In this document: one piece after another, positions 2-41,415 of the stretch
Layout: each line of letters begins with the position of its first letter
How positions within the stretch are numbered: position 1 is the stretch's first letter
Assembly (NCBI RefSeq): GCF_964021855.1
Contig: NZ_CAXHZD010000006.1
Coordinates: forward strand, 18,213 to 82,212
From: an uncultured Sulfitobacter sp.
GTDB taxonomy: Bacteria > Pseudomonadota > Alphaproteobacteria > Rhodobacterales > Rhodobacteraceae
Length of the DNA: 64,000 nt
Direction of reading: 5' to 3'
Made by a program: the position numbers and the translations under genes
Notes under the pieces: generated by a model
The model's input: only the letters and a program-made list of their open reading frames with translations
Told to the model about the DNA's origin: nothing
Database searches by the model: none

Positions 2-3000
2 ACCGATCAGACAGACGCAAACAGCGTCAGCACCATGGTTGTCTATTCTTCTGTCTTTACCGTCGCCGACATTCCAGAAACGCAAACCAGCGGCCTGTCG
101 CTCAATGTTGGTCCTGTCACGATTGAAGCGCCCTCTGTCGGTCTTGATAAGCTGGCGTTCAAAGATGGCCGCCTGATCTTGACCATTGCTATCGGCGCTG
201 ACCGCGCGGCGCTCGCGTTTGGCAGCACCACACCGGCTGGCGGCACGCCGTCCAATACCGGCGGTACAAGTGTTGTAATCAACGGTTTGCTGGTCAAATT
301 CGACGTCGGCATTGATGTCTTGGCAACCATCACCGGTGGCGAGCCGGACATCGGGTTCACTGGCAAGTGGGAAGTCACAGCAGATAGTCTGCTTGGCACC
401 ATCCCCGAGGTTCTGACCTTTGAGGCATATGCGATCAAAATTGGATATGACCCTGATTATGATGCGTCAAAAGCACCGGCGGAAGTTCTGTCCGATGCCG
501 GACAGAAACTGGTTGAAATTGGCACGGTCAAGGTCACGTTCCCACGCTTTGGCTTGACGGGCCTGATCACTGGCGACGTCACTACGCCGGGTCTGATTGT
601 TTACGAAAACGGGTTTAGCCTGAAGACGGCGCAGCTGATCTATAGCAGTCTGTCCAGCAACCCGCAGTCGGCCACCCGTACGGACGGGCAGACCGGCACG
701 ATCAAATTTGGCAGCTTGCTTGAATTTGTTGATCTGCGCATCGGGGTGACAGACTTTAGGGTGGTCTTTGGTCAGGCTGTGACCTTTGACGGATCGATTT
801 TTGTCGCCTCTGGTGGTGCAAAATTTGCACCCGGCAAACCAGTTTCAGCCGATATTCGCGACCGCACCACTGCGGAACTGACCGATACTGTGGGCGCGCC
901 GGACACAGAGGCGATCCGCCTTGGGTTAACCTTTACCGACGGCCGTGTTGACGGGTTCATCTGGCGGATGGACACCTTCCGTATCACCTTGGGGCCAAAC
1001 CTTGTTCTGACGGGCGTTGACCTGAACCTTGATACCGGTGCCGCGAATGACGAAGAGCTGATCAGCTTTGCCGCAATCGGCGCTGAACTGACCGTGGGGT
1101 CGGTGACGCTGATGGGTGAGGCACGGCAGTTTGCATTCCTTGGCGACGGCAGCTTTGTCACCAAGCGCGGCTTTGGCGTGTTCATCGGTGTTGGGTCGGC
1201 CACCGGCGCGACGTTCAAATGGCCGGCATGGCTGCCGATACGTATCACGGAAATTGGCGTGCAATGGGCTGATATTCAGGCCGCGCCCGAGAAATTCGTG
1301 CTGACGCTGTCCGCGACGATCACTGGTCTGCAGGGCAACCCGGGCCTTAAATTCGAAGGCACCGTAAAAGGCATCCAAATCGATGTAGGGCTGTTGCTGG
1401 ATGGTAAGAACCCGATCATCGGCATCGAAGCATTGGGTGTGTCGGTTTCGGGCAACCTGTTTGGCGGCCAGATCGAAGGTACGCTGATCGGTGGCATTAT
1501 CAATGTCGATGCGTCAGGAAACGAAGTGCCGACGCTGGATACGACAACAGTCGTGGCCGACCGTGTGTTCTTTGTCGGGGTTGAGGCCGGATATGCCTTT
1601 GCGGGTCTGTCGGGCTTCACCATCCGCTTCGCGATGAGCGAACTTGGCCCGTTGGGTGTTCTTGTGACCGCGCAGATTCCCGGTGGTATCCTGCTTGAGC
1701 CGATTTCGGGCCTGACGATCAATAACTTTACCGGCGGCGTTGATTTCTTTACCTCTCTGCCTGATATCACGACGCCGGGTGAATTGACGGGCCCTGCATT
1801 CCAATTGCCTGCGAACGTAAGTGTAGATGGTTGGCTGGATATGGTGCGCGGTCAGGTCCTGACCCAGTATCGTCTGATGCAGGCAAACCCATCGCAAAGC
1901 GGTTTTGCGGCCGCGTTCCAAGCGCCGATGGTGTTTTTTAATGATACGGCGACCACCGAGATCTACACATCCGAGTTGACCTTTAACGGTCAGGTGACGA
2001 TCAAGATTTCCACAGACGGCAAAATACTTGTTATCGGCCAGCTGAATTTTGCTGCTGACAACCTGTCACTGTCCGCGCGGCTTTATGCCAACCTAAGCAA
2101 AATTGCCGCGGGTGAGGCGACGATCCTGTTCTTGGCAAAAATTCCGGATCAAGTTGACATCATCACGATCGAAGGCAGCTTGCGCTTTGGCTTCCAAACG
2201 CTGCTTGGCGACGATGTCGAGATTGAAATTGTTCAAGACCGCGCAGCCAATCCGACGCAGGAACTGGCAGGGCCCGGTGCAGGTACCGAAATTGGCGCTT
2301 CTGCGATTAACGGTGCCGGCTATATCGACGTTACATTCGAAGATTTGGGCACCGCAGTTCTGGATAAAGCATCGGTTCTGGATCTCGCGCCGGAGTTGAT
2401 CATAACCACAGCTGGCGTAGTGCTTGATGATACGCTCGCGCCGGTACATCTGACTGGTACGACCTATCGCTTCTGGGTCATTGGTACGGCGACAAGCCCC
2501 ATCAGCTATCAATATGTAAACCAGGGTTGGTCATACCTGAACGAACAAACGGGCGAGGTGCTGTATAGCACGGTTGTTAATGAGAGTTCATCCGCTGTGG
2601 GGACGGCTACGGTTGTCACCGGCCCTTGGATCGACATCCGCTTTATCCCTGAAATCGGTGCCGAACTGACCGCTGCAAACATGCAAGCGATTGCTGCCGG
2701 TGGCGCGCCGTTCGTTCTGCGTAACCAAGCGGGCGAAGTGGTCGAGTTGAAAACCACCGGGGAGGCTAACGACAAGCGCGTGATCGTTGGCAAGGATGTG
2801 ATCCGGTATTTCCTGGCAGACACCAGCCTGCCGTTGGGCAAGTACACTGTGACCTTTACAGATGGTGCTTGGAATCGTGATGGGTTGGCCAATATCGCGA
2901 CTGCCAGCCAAAGCTTTGAGATCGTGAGCCCAAGCGCATCGATTGTAGGACCGTTTGCCAAAACCGAAACCGGGTACACCGCTGATGTGAACGTCTTGAA

Positions 3001-18000: not shown

Positions 18001-21000
18001 GAACGGCATCGTGCGTCTGCAAACAACCGAGGCGATTGCCTGGGATGCAACCGAGGCACAGATTTTGGCCGCGCTCGATCCGATCCTGAATCCGAACAAC
18101 GGTTATGACTTCCTGCCTTACACGCATAATGTTGACGTGGACCGTTTGGGCGGTGCCATCTATCTGACGTTCCAAGGTGCCCTTGCCGATGCGCGGATCG
18201 CAAGCATCGACACGCGCGGCTTGGGTGGCACCTATACCCAAACAGATATCAGCATTGCGACACCCGTTGTCGGCGGTATCTGGACGGTAACGGTTTCCGA
18301 TCTGGTCACACCAACGCAGATTGCCGGTTTGCCCGCAGCGCAGTCGGTATTCAGCTATACCGCTGTCGCAGGGGATACCGCGCAGACAATCGCCCGCGCG
18401 CTGGCCGACTTGATCGCGGCGGCCCAAGGCCCACATCTGGTGACTGATGCGGTTGATGGTGTTCTGACGATTATCAGCGGGTCGGCAAACCCAATCACCG
18501 TTAACGTCACAGGCGCGCTTGGTGCTGCGGGCCAGCAAACGAACCGCATCGCGACCACGTTGCAAAAAGACGGGATCGGCTATCATAACGTTGAGTTCCT
18601 TGACCTCACGCTTGGCAGTAATGACGACGTTCTGAATATTCAGGGCACAACAGCACACACAACCTTGCATCTTGGTGAGGGTGATGAGCGCATTTATGTC
18701 TCGTCAGAGGCTGCAGAAACCCTGACCAGCGACACACGGTTCCTGACCGGTCACCTGAACGGTATCACCGGATTGCTGAACATCGACGCAGGTACAGGCC
18801 GCCATCAGCTGATGATCTCGGACGAGGCAGCGATCTTGGGCGATGGCACGTCGGATCAGCCTGCGGTGATCACGGATAACCGCGCCAAAGCGCAAGCCGC
18901 TGCCAGCGCACGCGGTATCGACGATACCTTTAGCACCGTGACTGATATCTACGTGGTTGGCATTGCTCCGGCTGCCATCGGCTATACCGCTGATGCGCAG
19001 GGCAACTTCCTGAGCGGTGTGACCTATTGGACCGGCTTTGGCGACGACACGATCTTTATCGACGCGTCTCATATCCGCGATATTCCAGGCGCGCAGACTG
19101 TGACTTCGCTAAACACCGGGTTGGGCAATGACACGGTCATCATCACACTGGATGCTGGCGATGGGTTCTTTGCGCTGAACACCCAAGGGCCGTACAACCA
19201 ATACGCTGATGTCCGCGATGCAGATACGGTCACATCCCCCGGTACAACACGTCCGTTGGTGATCTTTGGCGGTCAGGATAACGACAAAATCGATACGGGT
19301 TCCGTTGACGACATCGTCTTTGGTGATCGCGGTGTGCTTGAGTATCTTGACGAAACCGGTGCCGTCAGCCTGCGTCTCGGGACCGGCGGCCTGACAGATG
19401 TCACCGATGGCGTTGCACGTGCGCCGACATCGTTCAAATCCACGTTCCTGAATGTGGGTGGCGTGGATACCATCAACACCTTTACCGGCACAGACATCAT
19501 CATCGGTGGCCAGGCTGGCGACGTCATTGATGCCGGTCAGGGCGACAATATTGTCATCGGCGACAATGGCGAAGTTCTGCTGGCAACCGAGGCACCGAAC
19601 TTTGGTACATTCCGCTATGCGCTGATTAGTGCCTTTACCGTTGATGCGACCACAGGCGGCGATGACATCATCCGCACCGGCTATGGCGCTGACTTGATCC
19701 TTGGTGGTTTCGGCAATGACACCATCACCGCCAATGTAGGCGAGACAGCAACGCAATCCGATGCGGTCAACCTGATCTTGGGTGACTTTGGCGCTGCCTT
19801 CTGGAACGACGACGGCGACCTTTCGACACTTGATCGTGTGGTTTCGACCGACACCTTTGTTGGCGGCAATGATACGATCCGCACAGGCCGGTCCAGCGAC
19901 ATCATCATCGGTGGTGATGCAAATGACGACATCGATGCCAGCCAAGGGGTCAACCTGGTTATTGGCGACAGCGGTGAAATTCTATCGGGTGCTGCGGCCA
20001 CGAATATTCATGCCTTCGGTCTGGCCCTGCAAACCATCCGCACCATCGAAGACACACGCGGCGGTGTCGACATCATCCGCACCGGCGACGACACAGACAT
20101 CATTCTGGGCGGTCAGGCTGGCGATGACATTGACGCCGCACAGGGCAACAACATCGTTCTGGGCGACAACGGATATGTGATCTTTGAGACCGACGCCCCG
20201 AACTTTGGCAACTTGGCCATCGCATTGGTCGAGATTTCGACCACATCGCCCACCACGGGTGGCAATGATGTTATTCGCACTGGGTTTGGTGCTGACCTGA
20301 TTATGGGTGGTGGCGCAGATGACACCATCACAGCCAACGTAGGCGAGACCGCAACCCAAAGCGATGCGATCAACCTGATCTTCGGCGACTTTGGTGCGGC
20401 CTTCTGGAACATCGACGGTAATCTGGCGACGCTTGATCTGGTGACCTCTATCGACACAGCATTTGGCGGTCGTGACATCATCAACACCGGCCGCGGCGAT
20501 GACATTGTCTTGGGTGGTTATGAGCGCGATGAAATCTATGCCTCAGAAGGGGCCAACATTGTATTGGGTGACAGCGGTCTGCTGGAATCTGGCGCAAGTG
20601 AAACCAACGTTCCGGGCTTTGGTCTGGCGCTGCGCACGTTGAAATCAATCGCTGACGCGCTTGGTGATGACGACAAGATCGCGACCGGTGCCAGCACTGA
20701 CCTGATCTTTGGTGGCAACGGGAATGACATGATCGATGCGGGTCAGGGCGATAACATCGTTCTGGGTGACAACGGCACGGCACTGTTTGACAGCACGGTG
20801 ACCAACTTTGGTAACCTGCCCATCGCAATCCTAAGCGTGACCACGCAAAGCCCCACCATTGGCGGCAACGACATGATCACCACGGGTCTTGGCAATGACA
20901 TCGTATTTGGTGGTGCCAAAAACGATAACATTGTGACGGATTTTGCTGGTGGCTTCGCTGGTACGGATGGTCAGGATATTGTGCTGGGTGACCACGGGTT

Positions 21001-24000
21001 CATCAACTTTGTGAACCCGGTCACAGGTGCCTATACCTTCCTGCGGGATGTTGTCTCGATTGATCCTGAATTCGGCGGCAATGATGTGATCAGCACGGGC
21101 CTGTCCACTGATATTATCTTTGGCGGTAACGGCGATGATGTGATCAACGCCGGAACGGTCGACAATGAAACCGACATTGTCTTTGGCGACAACGCCAAGA
21201 TCACCGTGAACGAAACCGGTGTCTTTACCGGGTCCACCGCTGCTGATCCAAGCGGTCAGGAATACGGCGTGATCAGCTTTAACTTTGGCAACGGCCGCTA
21301 TCGCCATGACACGACAGTTGATGGTGTCGCAGGCGCGGATGGATCGGCATCTGACAAGCCCGCACCGAAGGCAGAAGGCTGGAACGAACTGGACGGCGGT
21401 CGGGGTACCTACGGCGACGACGCCGCAGAATTCGTGCGCGACGAAAGCGGTGTGATCATGTCTGGTGTCACAATCGACTGGAGCGTGCGCGACTACAAAG
21501 GCCGCATCCGTAGCGCATATGACGATACCCATAGCGATATCCGTTACCCAGACACAGCAGACGAGCGCCTGTTCGAAGGATACCTCTATGCCGGTCACAA
21601 TGACACGCTGGTCGTAACGTTGAGCGGTCTTGATCGTCACTACGAGACATTTGATCTGTATCTCTATCTTGATGGTGATGACGGTAAGACGAAGCGTCGC
21701 TATGGTACTGTGCGTCAGGTCACCATCGGATCTGAGAGCTATTTCGTGAGCGACCCTGATAACGTGAACTTTGACGGCAGCCTGATCCGTGTGACATCGC
21801 AAGATCCGAATGCGCCGGGTCTGGGGAACTATGTCGTCGCGACGGGCCTATCTGGCGGAGAGATTACCATCGAGATCTCGATCCCATCAAACCAGCGCTA
21901 TGGTTATCCGGTGCTTTCGGGTCTGCAGATTGTTGGCCAGTCCTATAAAATTGACACATTCGAGACTGTCGCAGACAGCATCGGTGGCAATGATGTGATC
22001 CTGACCGGTGGTGGCGAGGATATTATCCTTGGCGGTGCCGGTGGCGACATGATCAACAGCGCTGGCGATGCGGATATGGGGCGCTTTGATGCTGACACGG
22101 TTATCGGTGACGGCGGCATCCTGACCTTCCTGCGTACCGGCGGCGTTGGCCCGGCTGAATTCGGCGAACTGCGCGAAATCGTAAGCCGCAATGGCGACGC
22201 GGGTCCGAACTACAACGACGTAATCGTGACAGGAAATGGCACAGACCGCGTGATTGGCGGGCAGGGCGATGACAACATCAATACCGGTGACATCTTCGTC
22301 CACAACGGCGTCGATGACGCAACTTCGGGCACAGATGTAATCGCTTGGGGCATGAACTTTGGCGCACAAGTCAATGAGGGTTGGGTCGACGGCGAAGCTG
22401 GTTATGTGGCGGGCGGCAGTTGGGTGAACTTTGTCGATCAGGGCAACTTTACGAAAACCTATTCCGAAACCCACGGTTGGGGCCGCCACTACCACACACA
22501 CACCTATCACAAACCTGTCGCCTCGATGCTGACGGCTGATGGTATCCGTGTCACTGTTGGCCAAGACCTAGAGTCCAAGCATGGCCGCGATGCCTATGTC
22601 CAAGACCATGATCAGATTAATGCCGACACTCAGAACGGCAGCCTGTTCAACGGCTACATCTACGCCAAACACAAGTCGGAACTGGGTGTTGATGTCTCGG
22701 GTCTTAGCAATATCTACGGCACTGGCAGCTATGACGTGTACCTTTATATCGATGCCGAGGATCGCGACGCAGCGCGCAATGGCGGTTATCGTCTGGTGTC
22801 CACCAATGGCGATATCATCAGCCTGAACGACCCGCGTGGTGCGAACTTTACCGGCGAATTTATTGAATATGATCCGTCGAACCCAAGCCTGCCTGCGAAT
22901 GTCGTGGTCTTCCGCGGCATAACTGGCGATGCATTCGAACTGCGGATCAACTCTGGCGGCTATTACAAATACGGCAAGTGGTGCTGGTACGATCACGACA
23001 CGCCAAGCATCGCAGGCTTCCAGATTGTTGGCGGTGCTGACAAAGATAACGTGGTTCAGCAAGGTGACTGGGATACCGATCTGGTTCTAGGCGATCAGGG
23101 CTTTATGCGGGTGTTTGACGACGCTGTGTTTGAATTTGCGTCGATGACCGGTGCCCCTGGAACGTCGAACGATACCATTCTGGGTGGGATTGACGGTGAT
23201 GTACTGATCGGTGGCGACGGAAACGATACGATCCGCGGCGAAGACGGCGATGACCGCATCGTCGGCGACAATGCGCATGTTATCATCATTGGTGGTAACA
23301 TCGTTGGTCTTGACCGCTTCTATGACAACAACAGAAAAGAATATCATCACAGCGAGCTCGACAAGCTTGACCCCTATACAGTCGTTGGGTTGCAGCTGAT
23401 TGACGTCACAGTGGGCGGCAACGACGTGATCGAAGGCGGCGGCGATAATGACTGGGCATGGGGCGGAACTGGCGACGATACATATGTATTCGCTGGCTAT
23501 GACCTGGGCACAGACCGCTTGGTCGAATCCGATGTTGTCGCAGGCGGCCACGGATCAAAGCATTATGGCCACGGTACAACGCCCGAAGGGCTGTTGAACG
23601 ACACAGGCGACGCGCTTGACTTCAGCGGCTTTGAGGGTCCGATTAATCTGGACTTGGGCAGCGACAGACGCCAGGTAATGCCGGGTGCCCACGCACATGG
23701 TAAGTACGGTCATGCACACGCCACGCTGTCGATCAAACTGTCCTCGGCTGGTGGTTTCGAAGATGTTTCCGGTTCCAACTACTCTGACGTCATCAAAGGC
23801 AATGACCGCAATAATGCCATTGCCGGAAATGGCGGCAACGACCATATCAAGGGCGTTTCCGGGTCGAACTTCTTGGACGGTGGCGATGGCCATGACCATA
23901 TAGACGGCGGATCGGGCCGGTTCGAAGACAGACGCGAGCATCGCTATGGCGACCTTGCCAGCCAAGTTATCATGGGCGGCGCGGGAGATGATTTGATCCA

Positions 24001-24451
24001 CGGCACCCGTGCAAATGATCTGATTGATGGCGAAGACGGCAACGACCGGATTTACAGCTACGGAGGCTCGGATATTGTGTTCGGTGGGGCAGGGAACGAC
24101 CGCCTGTACGTGTCAGGGTATAACAACATCGTCGTTGGCGGCGCGGGCCACGATTACATCTCGGGTCACCGCAAGTCTTACAACCATTTCGCCTTTGGTG
24201 ATCGCTATGGCCGCTACACCCCGTCAGGTCACGGCTATGGCCACTTTGGTAACTACTGCCACTGGTCCCACCGTTCGAATACATATGTCCATGGTGATCT
24301 GGACGACGCGTTGCGCACCATGGTGACGCAGCAGTTCCTAACGGCGTTTGCCCATGATTTTGCCCGCGCGGATTTCACATTTGATGTGCTCGGAACCAGT
24401 TCCTTGCGGTTCGCGCTGACGCCTTTTGTGACGTCAATCTCTGCCCCGTGA
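2..24451 (+). CDS. Giant secreted repeat protein (more than 8,138 aa inside the window, 5' end probably outside it): Ig-like/beta-sandwich repeats, Calx-beta-like modules, RTX-type GGxGxD Ca-binding repeats, CBM-like modules; T1SS-substrate-like adhesin
   Basis: This is a single uninterrupted ORF. The same frame is also open from nt 2 to the ATG at 35, and no Shine-Dalgarno (SD) sequence precedes 35, so the gene likely starts upstream of the window. Motifs seen: GGNGADIIFGGAGADAINGGNGADQIDSGAGDDSVDGGAGADLIF (nt 9401-9589); Calx-beta-like strands ANIADNDEAGIIVF, VEVIDNDSAKVLVF, LKLLDDDAPTVEI, VMAIDDEIIDGGD (nt ~12860-15960); C-terminal GNDRNNAIAGNGGNDHIKGVSGSNFLDGGDGHDHIDGGSG...GGAGNDRLYV...GGAGHDYISG (nt 23771-24165). 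Confidence 0.95.
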   Translation, partial: TDQTDANSVSTMVVYSSVFTVADIPETQTSGLSLNVGPVTIEAPSVGLDKLAFKDGRLILTIAIGADRAALAFGSTTPAGGTPSNTGGTSVVINGLLVKFDVGIDVLATITGGEPDIGFTGKWEVTADSLLGTIPEVLTFEAYAIKIGYDPDYDASKAPAEVLSDAGQKLVEIGTVKVTFPRFGLTGLITGDVTTPGLIVYENGFSLKTAQLIYSSLSSNPQSATRTDGQTGTIKFGSLLEFVDLRIGVTDFRVVFGQAVTFDGSIFVASGGAKFAPGKPVSADIRDRTTAELTDTVGAPDTEAIRLGLTFTDGRVDGFIWRMDTFRITLGPNLVLTGVDLNLDTGAANDEELISFAAIGAELTVGSVTLMGEARQFAFLGDGSFVTKRGFGVFIGVGSATGATFKWPAWLPIRITEIGVQWADIQAAPEKFVLTLSATITGLQGNPGLKFEGTVKGIQIDVGLLLDGKNPIIGIEALGVSVSGNLFGGQIEGTLIGGIINVDASGNEVPTLDTTTVVADRVFFVGVEAGYAFAGLSGFTIRFAMSELGPLGVLVTAQIPGGILLEPISGLTINNFTGGVDFFTSLPDITTPGELTGPAFQLPANVSVDGWLDMVRGQVLTQYRLMQANPSQSGFAAAFQAPMVFFNDTATTEIYTSELTFNGQVTIKISTDGKILVIGQLNFAADNLSLSARLYANLSKIAAGEATILFLAKIPDQVDIITIEGSLRFGFQTLLGDDVEIEIVQDRAANPTQELAGPGAGTEIGASAINGAGYIDVTFEDLGTAVLDKASVLDLAPELIITTAGVVLDDTLAPVHLTGTTYRFWVIGTATSPISYQYVNQGWSYLNEQTGEVLYSTVVNESSSAVGTATVVTGPWIDIRFIPEIGAELTAANMQAIAAGGAPFVLRNQAGEVVELKTTGEANDKRVIVGKDVIRYFLADTSLPLGKYTVTFTDGAWNRDGLANIATASQSFEIVSPSASIVGPFAKTETGYTADVNVLNSGAKQLIISFRAPSGNALNYASILDSLAEFTMTTPSGGSVTVGDPAAVRMVMGSNGAVTYEVISDAGMTQAEYYEYLTSEGITQFQYTLTGLTYAPGVYEISFDANAFRDAAGNQSIATATPIELVAEGATATLVNPGEGASIDVNRLGARSYIDIQFPTVPTDFTGYDHRSIIDAAPEFTLSGAGLNTIALDPAQAPTRIGENTYRYWLTGDFADGAETTSITVTAIAGAWSYTKAAADITVTGTVIDGVLQIGEVDAVTGIQNPLTLTGIFGAPPSGYVFDIESILDAGAEFTVTAPNGESYTAELVTTTDVVRADDGTGSDSAVQYQYAILLTGTVETTEAVTLTFGADLISYKSTSVETLTLVGANGGTGAINNYASYIDILITPATGDAAPDFAAGDLSKLTLTVGGAAGPAVVSLLDMGNGVTRVFLDGAVAVGDAVLTIAKDAFGADGAKNRALALNFHIAGAQGTIQNPGPDGTIGIGTLNGRGYVDLSFARPDGGLRIGSIIDLAPEFEFIGGNVTIAFDDTQAPEWLNPDDPTIDPDTITEDYRFRYWTTGTYTPGTTINRIASIDGEATVLRNDGTAADNAGTAGFVATTLDTSWIDIRFTPTFGDQIEFDTLGDEITVTGATLSGDAMRIGDGLTVRYFISGNVAAGSVNVTINAGTFSSGANAGEGSETSFQVLQLSGALADPVDGGVIGQLDLNNRGYIDVRFVKPSYAFEIDVASVLDLAPEVIFSATGGTITADLTQAPLYLGMDGDDAVFRIWYIGSFQGSDVADNVTVEFIGGSFNWLDTSGNTIDAVAANNSVELQVQSATSGFFLLLQLGTSELLDTGSFVNGAFTLTRADGSSLTVTGNTARAPPGQIELTITGGTSANPLVAGEFVTLSYGTDAWKYDDDIAIEAQATQTLSITSDLTNGYIDVTFAMLGDLTTNPLFALNIATLNGDEFTLSGAGSSVNILAIAPDDMGNGTYRYYTTGAFNTGTVFVKFEAGTWADLAGNTGAESTESFKVIDRVADGSAPADGDTSSRIFYIEIAGGIRYNVPGISDPLLEERGMARLTFGTYTDPDRGDVFRFTLKFSGTAKVYKLGNIGSIAGSFTIEDGGDTGRPEFWGVAAVQTNLSALAAFGLHVNGNALLQINLSGQERTETISLEGISGDLLGSKITGANVNALVLNRTASLFAEEAVDTTVRQAFAVRDVALDENATIALTKRFDGGVYQWRITSGASTYYVDQDGDNTLSLSSEAREFTMPAGSFAFEVQGSIKLTIPGGNPDTDALAELSGGFYISITRDRAEVFALANVVVGPSDAPLIEGRAQGLFIVNYSGANDGIAGKLSLERTGGSEEDGGSQANNDFAGIDPTQFRLDVTISLQFNTTLALQEFTVPTSFLGLLPPDAEPTVKISAGLPNFSDPDDLSAAPSVYFIASLKGSLTLFDAITLNGSLTLTVSSTPEFINGVDAAGGERTTSTVRLTGVVNGNIAYIGSVFGTVDLKFESIAETVNGQTTLTAGLVGRAQLSLVGGLAIPGVALDAAVSFSLEINTYDETMPLVTFLNDEEYVLAGTVGNARYSDAAIDANGFKTGTIQIANGLYLKFNAEMSIQNIVKLNGNFELSISKATGVIVIEAELDVNARVVGVLDNLSLQGKLVLSEGGMIIYGSFGINAGINGILEFKGQATFGLNTFSSARVISVGGQNVTVGSGVKLVIQGSVEFVGFATAAGKTTIAILSDRTEISFDVVFGLGGLNVRAAGAAGLYYTGVNITGIAIALNVSIDANIARIIDISASGRLTLNTTGSVQRIGSFTLAANSFSLALTGDVQFLKTIKFNASFNVTILNNAWNVNFNANINFFGIATLAANGWFKSDGTFDVSLRGGVLLGSRGFGMEGSFYFNVFYKPVGGVDTIGFSGSASVSLYGLGINWGGASLSFGANIPIGNGGSVPIRVSASASVKIVFVRIRLNLNFTIGYLQLPEPIKLAEVDNGNLILNMGDGNGDRGIGEGAEDETYVIEQIAPGTIRVTYSGREQVFTGVNRITGYGGAGNDVILVREGVTADLLFNGGNGIDLVDYQGSGKATINQGEAVTDFGDQITIGRFAQAESVVHGANVTRVLAAGETPSLLGDRIVSHSNQSISIFGLGGDDFIQQLGAGSATIEGGNGADIIFGGAGADAINGGNGADQIDSGAGDDSVDGGAGADLIFRTLGAAGILTVNGSGSEDTLYVTGSSRADTARLSRGSVVIRNVDNTRGATITGGVGTVQIQLLGGQDTIIVNDISGQGVSRLIIEDDLAVEGPGYTGSAASREGTTDNNADIVIINGTAAADTFALVQDDVDGTDIKVNATWNGATAVAIVLNDFRRDAGDKLFINAGGAGDVIDAHALTQNTVALELNGDAGNDTIIGSQYNDVIDGGADNDTITGGEGFDIFRDGGNTSVGDTLIETFTAYDFGLFEDRFVVGTLSGTSGDVWTAATVENINGIFENVILTGGNGVANRMVVNDLNRQIRVAGSVVSVAAFDGTVTLDAKSEGTPETYHINAPKGSDFVVNINDTGIGFATVRFDGSDDADLIIVNDDTLAVTGAATVTITHINTNQVNLNTAGGGDEITVQSTDIPLYIRSGLGDDTIRIGNAGSLTEIDALVDLDAYDVFGGGTSPIDRGSDTLLIDGSNDAHTSAGTLGLRNLAALEGWIDVTGFNLSAAGISYIAVENIEIDLGAGANIATITSTGLADKTTLRTGGGVDTVNLYAMNGPTFIETGTGVDSVVVGKPVMTTPVTTFTVNDILFGQLTINGGSEALAANEGNDTLRVSDNGDSAVDRGNRLTADEIIGLGMTVGIKYAGFETLVLETSNGNNELHVDGTHAGLTKIDMGDETVSPTDDSSNDVLNIERLGGPTEIKLGQGNDIVRVNYDEYGQQTFVNGLQSGSLSVTYVLELDGEQGSDFYQIGLAGEGTALIRLLDSGLPDQGADSAEINGTNRADLFLFRANLNPAVATGVVAALQLDANGDQIAGILERVEYNGALEGDIQVNGRDGDDIFVLDDTLATFNIFGDAGNDTFQVGQLFASARDASNPYNGLDGIDYYATTQVTLGFLSNGISKNATLNGGTGQDNFTVYSNKAELFLFGDEDDDSFLVRSFVRVDPNDPAAPYTNINGGQGADFVSYNINAPVRIDGGDGFDTLTIVGSEFGDDYVITENGVFGGGLFVSFVGLEKLVVDALQGNDTFYIESTNENVQVEIIGGIGSDNINIAGADLNAITEGGAITVVSNSLNGHNGLIQTIVSSNDARYNAIFAKDVVANIADNDEAGIIVFNDYDALRVFEDALTSPLLIHNSYGIALSRAPEDIVTITITPTRGTESSQAAGGKGVMVNGSEIYTTLTFDASNWDQVQYVTVTGVNDALAEGRQVINLRHTTVQGTISTDEQAYDGVVVADVLVEVIDNDSAKVLVFSRLEAGSTVDTIDADVVGEDVLLTANGDSIYVALSRAPTGPVTVTFNVNDGATVSFSGPSGTQSGSSVTIGFDSSNWNTPRLLQLAANDDNAPEGVHYTRVTPVITSGQDAFLGLGQGDIARGLAANINADISQTRNAVALYRSADIQIFRGTQNATISEVWTVTINGEEYSATFGAGATSLTVAQGLRDAIRFDARKPEGLTAVVISGVLRVEDTAGFSIDAKVQTPFYNNGFEIEATANTTMRVFIDGQAFELETLAPAGATMPVVGQRALEVAVVTLTSSVSDGTRNAAGGIVIGATWNIVLDDLTVSATAVTGDTLQSIVRRLIGKLAGSDYAASELYRSATIVPSIVGGITADATWNILLDGQLVTYTSVAADVPNGIYGIGEKIAEQITALNQNYVVSVRTGGAITVSRPLGNPFSIVSVSSNGVTDLVAAGANSIAPPQVVENAIVIFKRPEAAGVPPFGLQVVRLSNPAAPTSQNGASSSPLRVLSSTYWDYTSVSIAPITGVIAQGTTWGLRLSAADIAQGADAAILENYDYVAGQNNEQLAPSAFDLKLLDDDAPTVEIIESGNSTDLAEREEEDARVVDSFDVVLTGALTGNKWVIVDVTPLKTRTYNGDLAFDASANFGEANRVQVRVAAPIAELSFTGSAVAGEVWSVALYDDSTYQATILIVNYTVQASDQLSDIRGGLITQINAQAGYQAVLAGDAIKITRAGVTPTPRFFVEATITPDTRGTILTRTVPDFNFDNVLEIEFAGIPAVGETWDVTFVGKLYSQTVAAGDSLATLAAKLAASIQADDDARIAAGGARLYDVSVDGTVVSVQVLADKRATLAASGEITPVGTALADSDGAMVLRQYVKFDAGNWNVAQTITVMAIDDEIIDGGDAKVFAAFDERVNSIRGPISVIGGVSPTAVELNNPILLPGESNEKLPSGTADSIETTDGVTTVTDHALTHVNKLYGERPGFDPRINGTATIYDIATMGITGTSDRVDILSSAQDILSFASGTKIGEGTPFSVNLTVDGNDATVTGAAEVFGTPDQSAAVLGMLDWLEATVDLTAGATTGLYQITLSPTAGSTVGQEVFSYTTTAGNNFAGTIALELAKAINQSSTQFRARAVVNLVGETRLRIVEVGDATGGFDIGVVTPADAKVIIGGTPVAGQYAQAGVKWTMAAIRVLDTTAGATWTLSVDGTVRSALSTGDAASITQTLANKLPGSLRPVVSGSFATIAAALPANFATGSDRLYSYAPVNANLRVDEAEQVDTLTIFNGQSPAADVGVLTSTRLSGLGMGDDVVIAGKRILGGITYSGIEALDIRLGRNGDVLTIESTHEGKTRIDTGNGDDVVNVKSTSGHTFITTGQGNDIVNVGSDRGVLDQITGMLVLDMGDDAGDRLNLDDSLDVKANVMTLTGSRLTGLDMPSVAEIQQINVRAIGGTFTLSFAGSVGIATLGAFDYDAMSVSAIAAAAQSAREQIAAITGYDVTVEIIQTKNGIAYLVEFGGLAGGLDVAMLSVESTANLVAAPDTTTDVNVVEVRVGTTTPRRDNVEVLRLSADSGTFTLSFLVPDVNGIVRLQTTEAIAWDATEAQILAALDPILNPNNGYDFLPYTHNVDVDRLGGAIYLTFQGALADARIASIDTRGLGGTYTQTDISIATPVVGGIWTVTVSDLVTPTQIAGLPAAQSVFSYTAVAGDTAQTIARALADLIAAAQGPHLVTDAVDGVLTIISGSANPITVNVTGALGAAGQQTNRIATTLQKDGIGYHNVEFLDLTLGSNDDVLNIQGTTAHTTLHLGEGDERIYVSSEAAETLTSDTRFLTGHLNGITGLLNIDAGTGRHQLMISDEAAILGDGTSDQPAVITDNRAKAQAAASARGIDDTFSTVTDIYVVGIAPAAIGYTADAQGNFLSGVTYWTGFGDDTIFIDASHIRDIPGAQTVTSLNTGLGNDTVIITLDAGDGFFALNTQGPYNQYADVRDADTVTSPGTTRPLVIFGGQDNDKIDTGSVDDIVFGDRGVLEYLDETGAVSLRLGTGGLTDVTDGVARAPTSFKSTFLNVGGVDTINTFTGTDIIIGGQAGDVIDAGQGDNIVIGDNGEVLLATEAPNFGTFRYALISAFTVDATTGGDDIIRTGYGADLILGGFGNDTITANVGETATQSDAVNLILGDFGAAFWNDDGDLSTLDRVVSTDTFVGGNDTIRTGRSSDIIIGGDANDDIDASQGVNLVIGDSGEILSGAAATNIHAFGLALQTIRTIEDTRGGVDIIRTGDDTDIILGGQAGDDIDAAQGNNIVLGDNGYVIFETDAPNFGNLAIALVEISTTSPTTGGNDVIRTGFGADLIMGGGADDTITANVGETATQSDAINLIFGDFGAAFWNIDGNLATLDLVTSIDTAFGGRDIINTGRGDDIVLGGYERDEIYASEGANIVLGDSGLLESGASETNVPGFGLALRTLKSIADALGDDDKIATGASTDLIFGGNGNDMIDAGQGDNIVLGDNGTALFDSTVTNFGNLPIAILSVTTQSPTIGGNDMITTGLGNDIVFGGAKNDNIVTDFAGGFAGTDGQDIVLGDHGFINFVNPVTGAYTFLRDVVSIDPEFGGNDVISTGLSTDIIFGGNGDDVINAGTVDNETDIVFGDNAKITVNETGVFTGSTAADPSGQEYGVISFNFGNGRYRHDTTVDGVAGADGSASDKPAPKAEGWNELDGGRGTYGDDAAEFVRDESGVIMSGVTIDWSVRDYKGRIRSAYDDTHSDIRYPDTADERLFEGYLYAGHNDTLVVTLSGLDRHYETFDLYLYLDGDDGKTKRRYGTVRQVTIGSESYFVSDPDNVNFDGSLIRVTSQDPNAPGLGNYVVATGLSGGEITIEISIPSNQRYGYPVLSGLQIVGQSYKIDTFETVADSIGGNDVILTGGGEDIILGGAGGDMINSAGDADMGRFDADTVIGDGGILTFLRTGGVGPAEFGELREIVSRNGDAGPNYNDVIVTGNGTDRVIGGQGDDNINTGDIFVHNGVDDATSGTDVIAWGMNFGAQVNEGWVDGEAGYVAGGSWVNFVDQGNFTKTYSETHGWGRHYHTHTYHKPVASMLTADGIRVTVGQDLESKHGRDAYVQDHDQINADTQNGSLFNGYIYAKHKSELGVDVSGLSNIYGTGSYDVYLYIDAEDRDAARNGGYRLVSTNGDIISLNDPRGANFTGEFIEYDPSNPSLPANVVVFRGITGDAFELRINSGGYYKYGKWCWYDHDTPSIAGFQIVGGADKDNVVQQGDWDTDLVLGDQGFMRVFDDAVFEFASMTGAPGTSNDTILGGIDGDVLIGGDGNDTIRGEDGDDRIVGDNAHVIIIGGNIVGLDRFYDNNRKEYHHSELDKLDPYTVVGLQLIDVTVGGNDVIEGGGDNDWAWGGTGDDTYVFAGYDLGTDRLVESDVVAGGHGSKHYGHGTTPEGLLNDTGDALDFSGFEGPINLDLGSDRRQVMPGAHAHGKYGHAHATLSIKLSSAGGFEDVSGSNYSDVIKGNDRNNAIAGNGGNDHIKGVSGSNFLDGGDGHDHIDGGSGRFEDRREHRYGDLASQVIMGGAGDDLIHGTRANDLIDGEDGNDRIYSYGGSDIVFGGAGNDRLYVSGYNNIVVGGAGHDYISGHRKSYNHFAFGDRYGRYTPSGHGYGHFGNYCHWSHRSNTYVHGDLDDALRTMVTQQFLTAFAHDFARADFTFDVLGTSSLRFALTPFVTSISAP
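2318..5800 (+). repeat. Intragenic array of beta-sandwich (Ig-like) units, each opening with [GSP][YW][IV]D[IVL]x[FI]
   Basis: The motif occurs 8 times: GYIDVTF (~2318), PWIDIRF (~2621), SYIDIQF (~3455), SYIDILI (~4141), GYVDLSF (~4474), SWIDIRF (~4813), GYIDVRF (~5131), GYIDVTF (~5764). Most copies are followed by LDLAPE[FLV] and later Y/FR[FY]W..G. Confidence 0.6.
9401..9589 (+). repeat. Internal RTX-type nonapeptide (GGxGxDxUx) block, about 6 repeats
   Basis: Translation is LGGDDFIQQLGAGSATIEGGNGADIIFGGAGADAINGGNGADQIDSGAGDDSVDGGAGADLIF, with a 9-residue period that matches the hemolysin-type Ca-binding repeat consensus. Confidence 0.85.
19270..21215 (+). repeat. Diverged tandem super-repeat, period ~603-606 nt (~201 aa), about 3 copies plus a partial leading copy, built from xGxDxIxGGxGxDxI units
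   Basis: Anchor motif APNFGTFRYALISAFTVDATTGGDDIIRTGYGADL starts at nt 19591, APNFGNLAIALVEISTTSPTTGGNDVIRTGFGADL at 20191, and VTNFGNLPIAILSVTTQSPTIGGNDMITTGLGNDI at ~20799. The internal string NVGETATQSDA[VI]NLI[LF]GDFGAAFWN is repeated almost exactly. DNA identity between copies is clearly below 100% by eye, roughly three quarters. Confidence 0.8.
23771..24165 (+). repeat. C-terminal RTX-like Ca-binding repeat block of the giant protein
   Basis: Repeats seen: GSNYSDVIKGNDRNNAIAGNGGNDHIKGVSGSNFLDGGDGHDHIDGGSG...GGAGDDLIHGTRANDLIDGEDGNDRIYSYGGSDIVFGGAGNDRLYVSGYNNIVVGGAGHDYISG. A further block, GGIDGDVLIGGDGNDTIRGEDGDDRIVGDN, lies at ~23183-23275. Confidence 0.8.
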
Positions 24452-24582
24452 AATTTGGAGATCATCAAGCCTAAGATATTCAACCAAAATATTTTTTTAG
24501 ATGGGGAAATTGAATGCAGTTTTCTCTTACTTTTAAGTTACTATCGTTGGGATGACATGTCCTGACTTCTAGGAATTGCACT

Positions 24583-26427: not shown

Positions 26428-26431
26428 GCGC

Positions 26432-30569: not shown

Positions 30570-30580
30570 TGGAGACGATA

Positions 30581-38632: not shown

Positions 38633-38722
38633 CAGTCGGCTCCTTTCAAAATTCAAGTTTGGGGATTGGCGGCTGATGGTGACCCCGGCCGAGGGACGGG
38701 AGCCGGGGCCACGAAAGCCTGC

Positions 38723-41362: not shown

Positions 41363-41415
41363 TTTTAAAGTTCCTTGATATGATTGATGTAAGAGTAAGG
41401 GGTAGGGGTGACTGA

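What the first reader, a model, noticed from the sequence alone, without database searches (positions are those of the whole stretch)
2..24451. Gene of more than 24.4 kb, still open at the window edge, with T1SS-type C-terminal features but no cognate T1SS in view
Seen in the sequence: there are 8,138 codons without a stop and the frame stays open to nt 2. The modular order is Ig-like repeats (2.3-5.8 kb), a long region with recurring F.L.INT-type strands (6.3-9.0 kb), an RTX block (9.4-9.6 kb), Calx-beta-like modules (12.8-16 kb), novel-looking W-x-V modules, xGxDxI super-repeats, CBM-like modules and C-terminal RTX repeats. Established knowledge: this is the general build of giant RTX or LapA-like adhesins exported by a T1SS. 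Inference: it is a surface adhesin or matrix protein, and its export route is an open question given the unusual neighbouring operon.
Basis: partly seen in the sequence, partly recalled or inferred. Interest (0 to 1): 0.6.

Follow-up and report, generated by a model that had tools for sequence, protein, structure and literature searches.

The report
Giant plasmid protein with dedicated exporter
The flagged reading frame is the last two-thirds of a real 35-kb plasmid gene for a 1.2-megadalton calcium-binding fibre protein whose N-terminal "LEPR-XLL" tag and neighbouring genes point to export by an untested SecA-like machine, not by the classical type I system.

Summary
Window 2-24451 is one open frame, and in the genome it runs 10.8 kb further upstream. 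The full gene is 35,271 nt (11,756 aa, 1,219 kDa, pI 4.1). It lies on a circular 167-kb RepA-type plasmid of a probable Rhodobacterales bacterium.

Only the RTX blocks match any Pfam or PDB entry. The labels Ig-like, Calx-beta-like and CBM-like are not supported.

It is not a LapA-type adhesin:
- The plasmid carries no ABC exporter, T1SS-type adaptor or TolC gene.
- The genome has no LapG.
- The N-terminus is a basic, non-hydrophobic leader ending in the LEPR-XLL motif.

Across 401 genomes, LEPR-XLL proteins co-occur with a second, truncated SecA (30/39 against 3-6/362). In every locus checked, the giant gene lies directly upstream of the same four-gene operon found here: GAF-adaptor, protease-adaptor fusion, truncated SecA, small adaptor.

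The best reading is that this protein is the cargo of that ABC-less machine. This is genomic inference only. A chromosomal T1SS acting in trans is not excluded.

One assembly flaw was found: window 1934-1960 is Illumina P5 adapter sequence that replaces nine native codons in frame.

The parts
2..24451 (+). 3' 24.45 kb (residues 3608-11756 plus stop) of the giant gene. The full gene is C6:7393-42663, and its first 10.8 kb lie upstream of the window.
1934..1968 (+). Assembly artefact: TTTTTT plus the Illumina P5 oligo. Nt 1934-1960 encode FFNDTATTE where close homologues have ITGSAKLYS or IYGSAKVFS. Length and frame are preserved.
2318..6115 (+). Repeat family B: about 110-aa all-beta units (residues 4380-5645, plus one copy at residues 3496-3609, which ends at window nt 7).
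9092..10270 (+). Internal RTX/beta-roll region (residues 6638-7030).
10268..13690 (+). Repeat family D: about 140-aa units (residues 7030-8170). It includes a scatter of RTX-like motifs at residues 7646-7834.
16778..17530 (+). Further copies of repeat family D (residues 9200-9450).
19118..21220 (+). Repeat family E: about 67-aa RTX-like units in 200-aa super-repeats, up to 62% identical (residues 9980-10680).
21509..22111 (+). First copy of a paralogous module pair (residues 10777-10977).
22586..23269 (+). Second copy of the paralogous module pair (residues 11136-11363).
23210..24160 (+). C-terminal RTX nonapeptide block (residues 11344-11660).
24161..24448 (+). 96-residue C-terminal tail after the last RTX repeat. 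It could serve as a T1SS signal, but it is not conserved in giants with the same neighbourhood from other genomes.
24583..26427 (+). GAF-domain membrane-fusion protein (614 aa), first gene of the putative export operon, 131 nt after the giant gene's stop.
26432..28582 (+). Fusion of an HExxH intramembrane (site-2-type) metalloprotease with an HlyD-type adaptor (716 aa). HExxH and NPLxxxDG are invariant in 15 orthologues. It is the universal neighbour of LEPR-XLL proteins.
28575..30569 (+). Truncated SecA-like ATPase (664 aa) with DEAD motor, preprotein cross-linking domain and P-loop domain but no C-terminal wing/scaffold part. It is the only second SecA in the genome.
30566..31384 (+). Small membrane-fusion protein (272 aa), last gene of the operon. 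Its start overlaps the SecA-like gene's stop.

Best explanation
The frame is the distal two-thirds of a genuine 35.3-kb gene on a circular 167-kb RepA-type plasmid. It encodes an 11,756-aa, 1.22-MDa, acidic (pI 4.1), almost cysteine-free, all-beta repeat protein with several calcium-binding RTX blocks.

The protein belongs to the class of giant 'LEPR-XLL domain-containing' proteins. Its first 47 residues are basic and lack a hydrophobic core, and they lead into the motif FRVEALEPRILLSADP.

Proposed mechanism, inferred from gene context and not shown:
1. The leader is recognised in the cytoplasm by the protease-adaptor fusion encoded two genes downstream.
2. The truncated SecA-like ATPase drives the unfolded chain, N-terminus first, into a conduit lined by the three HlyD-type adaptors.
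3. That conduit connects to a chromosomally encoded TolC-type channel.
4. The intramembrane metalloprotease removes the leader.
5. Outside the cell, calcium folds the RTX beta-rolls and repeat modules into a long surface or matrix fibre.

The C-terminal RTX block is read as a structural calcium-dependent folding element, not as a type I secretion address.
For: Gene and replicon.
- A single stop-free frame of 11,767 codons.
- The first and last 55 nt of C6 are identical, and RepA and ParA lie just upstream.
- The longest exact DNA repeat inside the gene is 18 bp.
- Independent assemblies are collinear with it: P0003 at 73% over residues 29-4626, P0001 at 76% over residues 5876-11756, and the Yoonia litorea pair P0005+P0002 at 42%.

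Leader.
- NF012209 scores 28-36 bits against a cut-off of 17.
- It is the only such match in the genome, and the adjacent SecA is the only second SecA.
- There is no hydrophobic h-region.
- The same basic-stretch-plus-LEPRxLLS(A/G) pattern occurs in 20 giants from 16 genomes, this one included.

Co-occurrence in one fixed set of 401 genomes.
- 30 genomes are LEPR+/SecA2+, 9 are LEPR+/SecA2-, 3-6 are LEPR-/SecA2+ and 356-359 have neither.
- The odds ratio is 200-400, Fisher p 1e-31 to 1e-34, and the positives span 14 families.

Synteny.
- 13 of 13 inspected loci with an upstream giant read giant 3' end, GAF-MFP, S2P-MFP, SecA2; 11 of the 13 also show the small MFP by BLAST.
- Of 80 loci found with the S2P-MFP profile, 71 hold SecA2 and 75 hold GAF-MFP.
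- 32 of 36 of their genomes hold a LEPR-XLL protein. In about 20 of them its predicted 3' end lies about 2-5 kb upstream of the S2P-MFP gene (giants of 4.6-14k aa).
- All 9 LEPR+/SecA2- genomes still carry an S2P-MFP homologue, and in at least four it lies beside the LEPR gene.
- Finished plasmids of cultured Rhodobacterales show the same layout. One carries a 10,603-aa protein that PGAP names 'LEPR-XLL domain-containing protein'.

Against T1SS as the address.
- C-terminal tails and RTX content are not conserved among these giants.
- 8 of 57 system-bearing genomes have no T1SS adaptor over the cut-off, including two with RTX-bearing giants.
- The genome's own complete T1SS sits next to its own 857-aa substrate.

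Protease.
- The active-site motifs are invariant.

Precedent.
- Wing-less SecA domains are fused to Omnitrophota giant proteins and were proposed to export them (bioRxiv 10.1101/2023.11.21.568195).
- LEPRxLL giants of Chlorobium chlorochromatii are expressed and leave the cytoplasm (bioRxiv 10.64898/2026.03.19.712371).
Against: - Everything about export is inferred from gene context.
- The operon encodes no obvious inner-membrane protein channel apart from the protease's membrane domain.
- The SecA-like protein lacks the C-terminal part of canonical SecA.
- The plasmid carries no outer-membrane factor.
- This protein does end with RTX repeats 104 residues from its C-terminus, plus a 96-residue tail, as T1SS substrates do.
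- The genome has a complete T1SS on C3 and a second T1SS-type adaptor on C11.
- 49 of 57 genomes with the system also have canonical T1SS adaptors, and one (G336) has a T1SS-type adaptor 3 kb upstream of its LEPR giant.
- 9 of 39 LEPR-positive genomes lack the second SecA, so the motor is not universally required.
- The Fisher test ignores phylogenetic non-independence.
- The leader-binding (RRE/PqqD-like) nature of the protease's N-terminal domain was not tested here. It rests on a below-cut-off NCBIfam match and on PGAP product names.
Confidence: 0.6

Rival explanations
1. Classical type I secretion in trans. The C-terminal RTX block and 96-residue tail are recognised by a chromosomal ABC-MFP-TolC system (for example C3:521-526 kb) and the protein leaves C-terminus first, as LapA, SiiE or MpIBP do. 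On this view the neighbouring operon does something else.
For: - RTX repeats lie close to the C-terminus, and the protein has 2 Cys and pI 4.1.
- The genome has a complete T1SS plus a second T1SS-type adaptor.
- 22 of 31 related giants carry three or more RTX motifs in their last 2-2.7k residues.
- 49 of 57 system-bearing genomes have T1SS adaptors.
Against: - No T1SS gene lies on the 167-kb plasmid.
- The C3 system has its own adjacent substrate, which ends DDDINVVV.
- The genome has no LapG.
- Tails and RTX placement are not conserved in the class. Most related giants have their last RTX motif 150-800 residues from the end.
- 8 of 57 genomes lack a T1SS adaptor over the cut-off, including two with RTX-bearing giants.
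- It leaves unexplained the near-perfect linkage of the N-terminal motif with the operon.
Confidence: 0.15
2. The operon is a maturation, anchoring or regulatory module and not the translocon. The protease-adaptor fusion binds and clips the LEPR-XLL leader, or tethers the N-terminus at the envelope, and the GAF domain provides signal control. Translocation itself uses another route (T1SS or Sec), with the SecA-like ATPase acting as an unfoldase or chaperone for a 1.2-MDa chain.
For: - The protease part resembles RiPP leader peptidases (NF041824, 1.2e-43, below cut-off).
- SecA2-less variants exist, with only the S2P-MFP and adaptors next to smaller LEPR proteins.
- No dedicated inner-membrane channel is evident in the operon.
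- The genome has a T1SS.
Against: - Three HlyD-type adaptors in one operon are the hallmark of a trans-envelope conduit.
- The N-terminus has no Sec or Tat h-region.
- Some genomes with the system lack a T1SS adaptor.
Confidence: 0.17
3. The giant frame is an assembly artefact, a decaying pseudogene, or a protein that never leaves the cytoplasm.
For: - An Illumina adapter patch lies inside the gene, so the assembly is not flawless.
- The Chlorochromatium LEPRxLL giants were found mostly in cytoplasmic fractions.
Against: - There are 11,767 stop-free codons.
- No DNA repeat in the gene exceeds 18 bp.
- The patch preserves length and frame, and relatives are collinear across it.
- Orthologues at 73-76% identity over more than 10,000 residues have no stops.
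- Finished plasmids carry uninterrupted 8.1k-10.6k-aa orthologous genes.
Confidence: 0.03

Closest known systems
LEPR-XLL domain-containing giant proteins (NCBIfam NF012209). Examples: WP_205793450.1 on Pontibrevibacter nitratireducens ALG8 plasmid unnamed2, Yoonia litorea 'LEPR-XLL domain-containing protein, partial', and Cag_663/Cag_665 of Chlorobium chlorochromatii.
   Same: All share a basic N-terminal stretch followed by LEPRxLLSA, sizes of thousands to tens of thousands of residues, and largely unannotatable repeat bodies, often with RTX blocks. The Yoonia pair is collinear with this protein at 42% identity.
   Different: The family is defined only by the 24-residue motif and has no assigned function. 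This member carries a metzincin-like HExxHxxGxxH module right after the leader, whereas relatives carry it near the C-terminus. It also has a C-terminal RTX block that many members lack.
Giant RTX adhesins secreted by type I systems (LapA/LapBCE with LapG-LapD, SiiE, MpIBP, FrhA).
   Same: They are giant, acidic, cysteine-poor and calcium-dependent, with tandem beta-rich extender repeats, RTX repeats near the C-terminus, HlyD-type adaptors, and presumably a TolC exit.
   Different: Here there is no ABC exporter next to the gene or on the replicon and no LapG. There are no Pfam-recognisable Ig-type repeats. The N-terminus is a LEPR-XLL leader, not a retention module. The neighbouring machine has a SecA-like ATPase and an intramembrane protease in place of the ABC transporter.
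'Secondary SecA_DEAD plus type-I-related proteins' locus of Kamneva, Poudel and Ward 2015 (PLoS One, PMC4452313), e.g. Methylobacterium extorquens AM1 META1p2399-2402.
   Same: It has the same four genes in the same order: GAF, Peptidase_M50/HlyD, SecA_DEAD and HlyD. That paper infers horizontal spread, consistent with the patchy distribution across phyla seen here.
   Different: The paper names no cargo. Its text has no occurrence of 'giant' or 'LEPR'. Here the cargo gene is adjacent and the whole unit is plasmid-borne.
Omnitrophota giant proteins with built-in SecA DEAD/preprotein-binding domains that lack the wing and scaffold (West-Roberts et al., bioRxiv 10.1101/2023.11.21.568195).
   Same: A truncated SecA motor is associated with proteins too large for ordinary routes, and the authors propose that it exports the giant protein itself.
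   Different: There the SecA domains are fused into the giant protein, which has many transmembrane helices and lies next to type II-like secretion genes. Here the motor is a separate gene in an adaptor operon, and the giant has no transmembrane helices.
RiPP leader peptidases with a recognition element fused to a site-2-type protease (daptide protease, NCBIfam NF041824).
   Same: The protease-adaptor fusion matches the whole model (residues 18-401, 1.2e-43), and PGAP names its orthologues 'PqqD family peptide modification chaperone'. The giant's N-terminus looks like a leader peptide.
   Different: The score is far below the family cut-off (150 against 300 bits). The 'peptide' is 11,756 residues long, and the protease is fused to a periplasmic adaptor.

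Membership tests
LEPR-XLL domain-containing proteins (NCBIfam NF012209) | N-terminal 24-position LEPRxLL motif scoring over the curated cut-off (17 bits) | tested here: met
   28 bits by hmmscan and 36 bits in the six-frame genome search. The motif FRVEALEPRILLSADP lies at residues 43-58.
LEPR-XLL domain-containing proteins (NCBIfam NF012209) | Motif lies at the extreme N-terminus of a very large repetitive protein, after a basic non-hydrophobic stretch | tested here: met
   11,756 aa. The motif's LEPR core lies 47 residues after the start Met, with 9 K+R upstream. Maximum Kyte-Doolittle in the first 100 residues is 0.67.
LapA-like / giant RTX adhesins secreted by T1SS | C-terminal RTX nonapeptide repeats | tested here: met
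   HemolysinCabind has 11 stretches in the last 1,156 residues. PDB matches to CyaA and AlgE beta-rolls. The last motif is 104 residues from the end.
LapA-like / giant RTX adhesins secreted by T1SS | Functional uncleaved C-terminal T1SS signal | tested here: inconclusive
   T1SS signals have no usable sequence consensus. The 96-residue tail is conserved in the 76%-identical relative P0001 but not in giants with the same neighbourhood from other genomes.
LapA-like / giant RTX adhesins secreted by T1SS | Cognate ABC exporter, T1SS adaptor and outer-membrane factor encoded with the substrate | tested here: not met
   The 167-kb replicon has no full-length ABC exporter, no TIGR01843-level adaptor and no OEP gene. 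The canonical T1SS lies on C3 beside its own 857-aa substrate.
LapA-like / giant RTX adhesins secreted by T1SS | LapG-type periplasmic protease (PF06035) acting on an N-terminal retention module | tested here: not met
   PF06035 has no match in the genome at E <= 0.01. The N-terminus is a LEPR-XLL leader followed by a metzincin-like module.
LapA-like / giant RTX adhesins secreted by T1SS | Tandem bacterial Ig-like extender domains recognisable by profile | tested here: not met
   Pfam finds no Ig-type family at E <= 0.5 in twelve 636-1,156-aa pieces. The AlphaFold model of the 110-aa units is all-beta but has pLDDT 53.
Cargo of the secondary-SecA/HlyD/M50 locus (Kamneva 2015) | Gene adjacent to and co-oriented with the GAF-MFP, M50-MFP, SecA_DEAD and MFP genes | tested here: met
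   The giant's stop is at 24451 and the operon spans 24583-31384, with its last three genes separated by 4 nt or overlapping by 4-8 nt. The same order occurs in 13 of 13 inspected loci with an upstream giant.
Cargo of the secondary-SecA/HlyD/M50 locus (Kamneva 2015) | Presence of the cargo type and of the locus correlated across genomes | tested here: met
   30/9/3-6/356-359 in 401 genomes, p 1e-31 to 1e-34, 14 families. 32 of 36 locus-bearing genomes have LEPR-XLL. All 9 exceptions keep an S2P-MFP homologue.
Cargo of the secondary-SecA/HlyD/M50 locus (Kamneva 2015) | Export or processing of the protein depends on the locus | not testable with these tools
   This needs genetics and proteomics.
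Sec or Tat substrates | N-terminal signal peptide with a hydrophobic h-region | tested here: not met
   Maximum Kyte-Doolittle (19-residue window) in the first 100 residues is 0.67.
   Window 12800-16000 has no Pfam match at E <= 1. Residues 10601-11756 match only HemolysinCabind.

The most novel reading that the evidence does not exclude
LEPR-XLL is the address tag of a distinct, widespread, ABC-less trans-envelope secretion system. Its parts are a truncated SecA motor, a leader-binding intramembrane protease fused to an adaptor, two more adaptors and TolC. It exports the largest bacterial proteins N-terminus first. In this strain the complete cargo-plus-machine unit rides on a 167-kb plasmid, so it can move between bacteria as one piece and could be tested for sufficiency by transfer or curing. 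Within this pathway the SecA-like motor is an add-on that goes with the largest cargo. In genomes without it, LEPR reading frames were at most 4.5k aa. In genomes with it they reached 19.4k aa.
Probability: 0.45. Interest if true: 0.85.

Novelty: new variant of a known kind. Interest (0 to 1): 0.66.

Why it matters
How bacteria move megadalton proteins across two membranes is known only for type I-secreted RTX adhesins. Thousands of genomes carry 'LEPR-XLL' giants that databases name but nobody has explained. The recent experimental paper on such giants states that they lack known transport signals.

This locus provides:
- a complete gene for one such protein;
- its probable dedicated machine immediately downstream;
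- a statistical link between tag and machine across many bacterial families;
- a small, circular, probably curable or transferable replicon in a marine Rhodobacterales background, with finished-genome relatives in culture collections.

That makes the question 'what exports LEPR-XLL giants, and in which direction?' directly testable.

The report also corrects the reflex reading 'giant plus RTX equals type I adhesin', and it flags a sequencing-adapter patch inside a deposited gene.

Tried and rejected
I substituted a repeat-length test (longest exact repeat 18 bp) and collinearity with independent assemblies.
- Domain naming by profile: Pfam was run on the whole protein and on twelve 636-1,156-aa pieces at E <= 0.5, NCBIfam on residues 1-7607 only (the C-terminal ~4,150 residues were not scanned after one search failed), and PDB phmmer on the whole protein. 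Only RTX, LEPR-XLL and a weak Peptidase_M10 hit came back.
- Calx-beta: a homologue (P0010) is precomputed as carrying Calx-beta. The part of it that aligns with this protein's residues ~8,000-9,560 gave no Calx-beta hit; the first ~780 aligned residues of P0010 were not scanned. Window 12800-16000 gave none either.
- Structure of the 110-aa 'Ig-like' units: pLDDT 53, so unusable for fold search.
- Structure of the upstream 175-aa module: pLDDT 77, but Foldseek against the PDB found nothing (best E 0.099, TM 0.25). The fold remains unassigned.
- Promoter and terminator scans around the gene ends gave nothing above shuffles, apart from one weak hairpin at 24503-24526.
- A Sec or Tat route was considered and rejected because there is no h-region.
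- A chimeric contig join at the adapter site was considered and rejected because relatives are collinear across it without a gap.
Full report
**1. Observation**

One search lists a 5'-open frame at window 2..24451 on the + strand. The window is contig C6:18213-82212 of a 4.2-Mb, 18-contig genome.

In the laid genome the frame continues upstream to a stop at C6:7357-7359, and the first ATG is at C6:7393. The gene is therefore C6:7393-42663. That is 35,271 nt and 11,756 aa, giving 1,218.8 kDa, pI 4.08, 1,438 D+E against 565 K+R, and two cysteines. No 19-residue window reaches a transmembrane-like hydropathy of note, and the first 100 residues peak at 0.67.

**2. Replicon and host**

The first and last 55 nt of C6 are identical, which indicates a circular replicon of about 167.3 kb. 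A replication initiator (PF10134, 4.9e-86) and a ParA/VirC1 ATPase lie within 4 kb upstream of the giant gene.

The initiator is 78% identical to RepA of Paracoccus, Phaeobacter, Sulfitobacter and Roseovarius plasmids. The host is therefore very probably a marine Rhodobacterales bacterium. A same-genus genome in the comparison set (G132) has neither the tag nor the second SecA, so the unit is accessory.

**3. Is the frame an assembly product?**

- The longest exact DNA repeat inside the gene is 18 bp. The protein repeats are too diverged at DNA level to collapse or mis-join.
- Two independent metagenome proteins are collinear with it and have no stops. P0003 covers residues 29-4626 at 73% identity, and P0001 covers residues 5876-11756 at 76%.
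- A Yoonia litorea pair is collinear at 42%. PGAP calls the two parts 'LEPR-XLL domain-containing protein, partial' and 'calcium-binding protein'.
- Finished plasmids of cultured relatives carry uninterrupted orthologous genes of 8,148 and 10,603 codons.

One real flaw surfaced. Window 1934-1968 reads TTTTTTAATGATACGGCGACCACCGAGATCTACAC, which is a poly-T spacer plus the Illumina P5 oligo. The same 35-mer occurs once more on C6 and nowhere else in the genome. It translates to FFNDTATTE where P0003 has ITGSAKLYS and Yoonia has IYGSAKVFS.

The patch has the same length as the native stretch, there is no gap in the alignment, and the surrounding 300-residue stretch (patch included) is 87% identical to P0003. 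So nine codons are artefactual, but there is no chimeric join and no frame change.

**4. Anatomy**

In what follows, window nt = 3 x residue - 10822.

| Residues | Feature |
|---|---|
| 1-60 | Leader |
| 148-269 | Metzincin-like module with HELGHAYGFDH at 241 (weak Peptidase_M10, E 0.0078) |
| 499-2787 | Thirteen tandem ~175-aa modules |
| 3496-3609 and 4380-5645 | ~110-aa units |
| 6638-7030 | RTX |
| 7030-8170 and 9200-9450 | ~140-aa units |
| 9980-10680 | ~67-aa RTX-like units in 200-aa super-repeats, up to 62% identical |
| 10777-10977 and 11136-11363 | Paralogous module pair |
| 11344-11660 | C-terminal RTX |
| 11661-11756 | Tail |

Apart from RTX, the motif and the weak M10 hit, nothing matches Pfam (twelve pieces, E <= 0.5), NCBIfam (residues 1-7607 only) or PDB sequences. 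The labels Ig-like, Calx-beta-like and CBM-like are therefore unsupported, although the repeats behind them are real.

An AlphaFold model of the ~175-aa module, built on the 13 internal copies, has pLDDT 76.9 and pTM 0.67. It consists of 13-18-residue antiparallel strands and has no Foldseek relative in the PDB (best E 0.099, TM 0.25). The model of the 110-aa units is all-beta but of low confidence (pLDDT 53).

**5. Not a LapA-type T1SS adhesin**

The genome does have canonical type I parts. An adaptor (457 aa), an ABC exporter (761 aa) and an OMF (473 aa) lie at C3:521-526 kb, next to an 857-aa protein ending MIDDDINVVV. A second T1SS-type adaptor lies on C11.

None of these is on the plasmid. 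The C6 matches to the HlyB model are nucleotide-binding domains only, and TolC-type genes occur only on C2, C3 and C8. LapG (PF06035) is absent. The N-terminus has neither a Sec/Tat signal nor a retention module.

**6. What the N-terminus and the neighbours say**

Residues 43-58 (FRVEALEPRILLSADP) match NCBIfam NF012209 'LEPR-XLL' over its cut-off. This is the only such match in the genome. The SecA-like gene 4 kb downstream of the giant's stop is the only second SecA in the genome.

The four downstream genes are:

- a GAF-domain adaptor;
- an HExxH intramembrane protease fused to an adaptor;
- a 664-aa SecA lacking the C-terminal part;
- a small adaptor.

The last three are separated by 4 nt or overlap by 4-8 nt. 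This is the 'secondary SecA_DEAD' locus that Kamneva et al. described in 2015 without naming a cargo.

I tested the link in one fixed set of 401 genomes of the phylum.

- LEPR-XLL was over cut-off in 39 genomes, on reading frames of up to 19,427 codons.
- A second, short SecA occurred in 30 of those 39 genomes, against 3-6 of the other 362.
- The odds ratio is 200-400, Fisher p 1e-31 to 1e-34, and the positives span 14 families. The test is uncorrected for phylogeny.

In 13 of 13 inspected loci with an upstream giant, the order is giant 3' end, GAF-adaptor, protease-adaptor, SecA2; the small adaptor was detected by BLAST in 11 of the 13. A fourteenth locus (G010) has the operon upstream of the giant's start.

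A profile of the protease-adaptor fusion (HExxH and NPLxxxDG invariant) found more than 600 stretches in the species-representative genome collection. Of the 80 loci kept, 71 held SecA2 and 75 held the GAF-adaptor. 32 of 36 of their genomes have a LEPR-XLL protein.

In about 20 of those genomes the giant's predicted 3' end lies about 2-5 kb upstream of the protease-adaptor gene, with giants of 4.6-14k aa. They include isolates such as Mesorhizobium sp. LjNodule214, Marinobacterium mangrovicola, Seongchinamella unica, Billgrantia endophytica and Vibrio sp. UCD-FRSSP16_30.

The nine LEPR-positive genomes without a second SecA all keep a homologue of the protease-adaptor fusion. Eight of them carry a paralogous class (250-320 bits) that has one or two small adaptor genes beside it. 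In at least four genomes it lies right next to the LEPR gene. In those genomes the LEPR frames are at most 4.5k codons.

The protease-adaptor fusion is thus the constant partner of the tag, and the SecA-like motor goes with the largest cargo. Twenty N-termini from 16 genomes, this one included, show the same design: a K/R-rich, non-hydrophobic stretch followed by E-x-LEPR-x-LLS-(A/G)-(D/E).

The C-termini, by contrast, fall into unrelated classes:

- RTX plus tail;
- a hydrophobic stretch, then R-I-x-W, then a basic tail;
- a metzincin module followed by an RNPNA motif.

In 31 further giants, 22 have RTX motifs somewhere in the last 2-2.7k residues, but the last one usually lies 150-800 residues from the end. 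Eight of 57 system-bearing genomes have no T1SS adaptor over cut-off, among them two with RTX-bearing giants (G238, G402).

**7. Mechanism**

Shown here:

- the gene, the tag and the operon;
- their linkage across genomes;
- the intact protease motifs;
- the absence of T1SS genes and of LapG on the plasmid and in the genome respectively.

Inferred:

- the tag is a cytoplasmic leader read by the protease-adaptor fusion;
- the SecA-like ATPase threads the unfolded chain N-terminus first into a conduit formed by the three adaptors;
- that conduit connects to a chromosomal TolC;
- the protease removes the leader;
- extracellular calcium folds the RTX blocks and repeats into a fibre.

Weak points:

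- no inner-membrane channel is evident;
- no outer-membrane factor is on the plasmid;
- the leader-binding domain was not tested here. It rests on a below-cut-off NCBIfam match and PGAP's 'PqqD family' names;
- this protein's C-terminus would also suit a T1SS;
- one relative (G336) has a T1SS-type adaptor 3 kb upstream of its giant.

I put 0.6 on the cargo-of-this-machine model, 0.15 on T1SS in trans, about 0.17 on a processing or anchoring accessory role, and 0.03 on artefact or non-export.

**8. Literature**

'LEPR-XLL' or 'LEPRxLL' occurs in three papers of the searchable library. Two of them were not opened.

The third, the 2026 Chlorochromatium preprint, notes the motif on two giants of 36,806 and 20,647 aa. 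[quoted passage not shown]

West-Roberts et al. 2023 found wing-less SecA domains fused into Omnitrophota giants and proposed self-export. No paper combines SecA_DEAD and HlyD apart from Kamneva 2015.

Earlier notes of this scan reach the same cargo hypothesis on this and other genomes. I treated them as leads and re-derived the linkage independently. They also point to Studholme et al. 2004 as the first to suggest that the motif is an export signal; I did not open that paper.

**9. Verdict**

The protein is a new member of an annotated but unexplained class. Its pairing with an ABC-less, SecA-containing adaptor operon is an unpublished variant of type I-like secretion that is now directly testable. 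It helps that the whole unit sits on a plasmid and has finished-genome relatives in culture collections.

Noticed in passing
window 1934-1968 (C6:20146-20180); second copy at C6:127764-127798, outside the window: A poly-T spacer plus the Illumina P5 flow-cell oligo is embedded in the assembly at two places on the plasmid and nowhere else in the genome. Inside the giant gene it replaces nine native codons without changing length or frame.
   Followed up: partly
L002:7834-8199 (C6, residues 148-269 of the giant, upstream of the window): A metzincin-like mini-module lies right after the leader: GWFIDxT...VDLLTAVLHELGHAYGFDHGD...LALMG. The same module sits 79-218 residues from the C-terminus in 8 of 31 other LEPR-XLL giants, and in G027, G238 and P0010. 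In G336 the catalytic motif is degenerate (HEMGN).
   Followed up: partly
G123:C1:3145422-3164517; G077:C10:80681-98870; G263:C15:195755-213309; G046:C115:74355-92247: A SecA-less variant of the system exists. Smaller LEPR-XLL proteins (2.4-4.5k aa) lie next to one or two small adaptors and a paralogous protease-adaptor fusion (250-320 bits to the profile). This suggests that the SecA-like motor is an add-on for the largest cargo.
   Followed up: partly
L027, L028, L031, L034, L035, L032 (C-terminal ends of giants in G006, G022, G086, G126, G082, G195): Several giants of the class end with a short hydrophobic stretch, then R-I-x-W, then a basic tail. This resembles a tripartite sorting signal and not a T1SS signal. 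The giant studied here does not have it.
   Followed up: no
C6 ends (outside the window) and L002:3477-6330: The first and last 55 nt of contig C6 are identical, and RepA (78% to Rhodobacterales plasmid RepA) and ParA lie just upstream of the giant gene. C6 is therefore a closed ~167.3-kb plasmid. 13 finished plasmids or chromids in PLSDB carry the same protease-adaptor gene.
   Followed up: yes
G000:C3:521202-528578: A complete canonical T1SS operon (adaptor, 761-aa ABC, OMF) sits next to an 857-aa protein ending MIDDDINVVV, which is its likely own substrate. Five ordinary RTX proteins of 322-964 aa are scattered on C1-C4.
   Followed up: partly
G336:C1:1482863-1484113: In one relative, a T1SS-type HlyD adaptor (352 bits) lies 3 kb upstream of the start of its 9,292-aa LEPR-XLL giant. 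This may indicate cooperation between the two routes in some genomes.
   Followed up: no
L002:8887-15762 (residues 499-2790, upstream of the window): Thirteen tandem ~175-aa modules are predicted (pLDDT 77) to form long 13-18-residue antiparallel strands with no Foldseek relative in the PDB. They may build an extended continuous beta-sheet like the one described for the first 13,000 residues of Cag_663.
   Followed up: partly
window 24503-24526: A weak terminator-like hairpin followed by a T-run lies in the 131-nt gap between the giant gene and the operon. It could act as an attenuator setting cargo-to-machine stoichiometry, but it is not above the shuffled expectation.
   Followed up: no
L118:17863-18144 (Pontibrevibacter plasmid): A small DUF3467 gene sits between the giant gene and the GAF-adaptor in a relative. 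The corresponding 131-nt gap in this window is too short to hold one.
   Followed up: no
window 32894-41928 and 44326-50199: Further large DUF11-repeat proteins (1,920, 879 and 1,957 aa; the last has a weak M4-peptidase-like stretch) lie on the same plasmid next to a LuxR-type response regulator (42477-43091). This is a second surface-protein cluster, not examined here.
   Followed up: no
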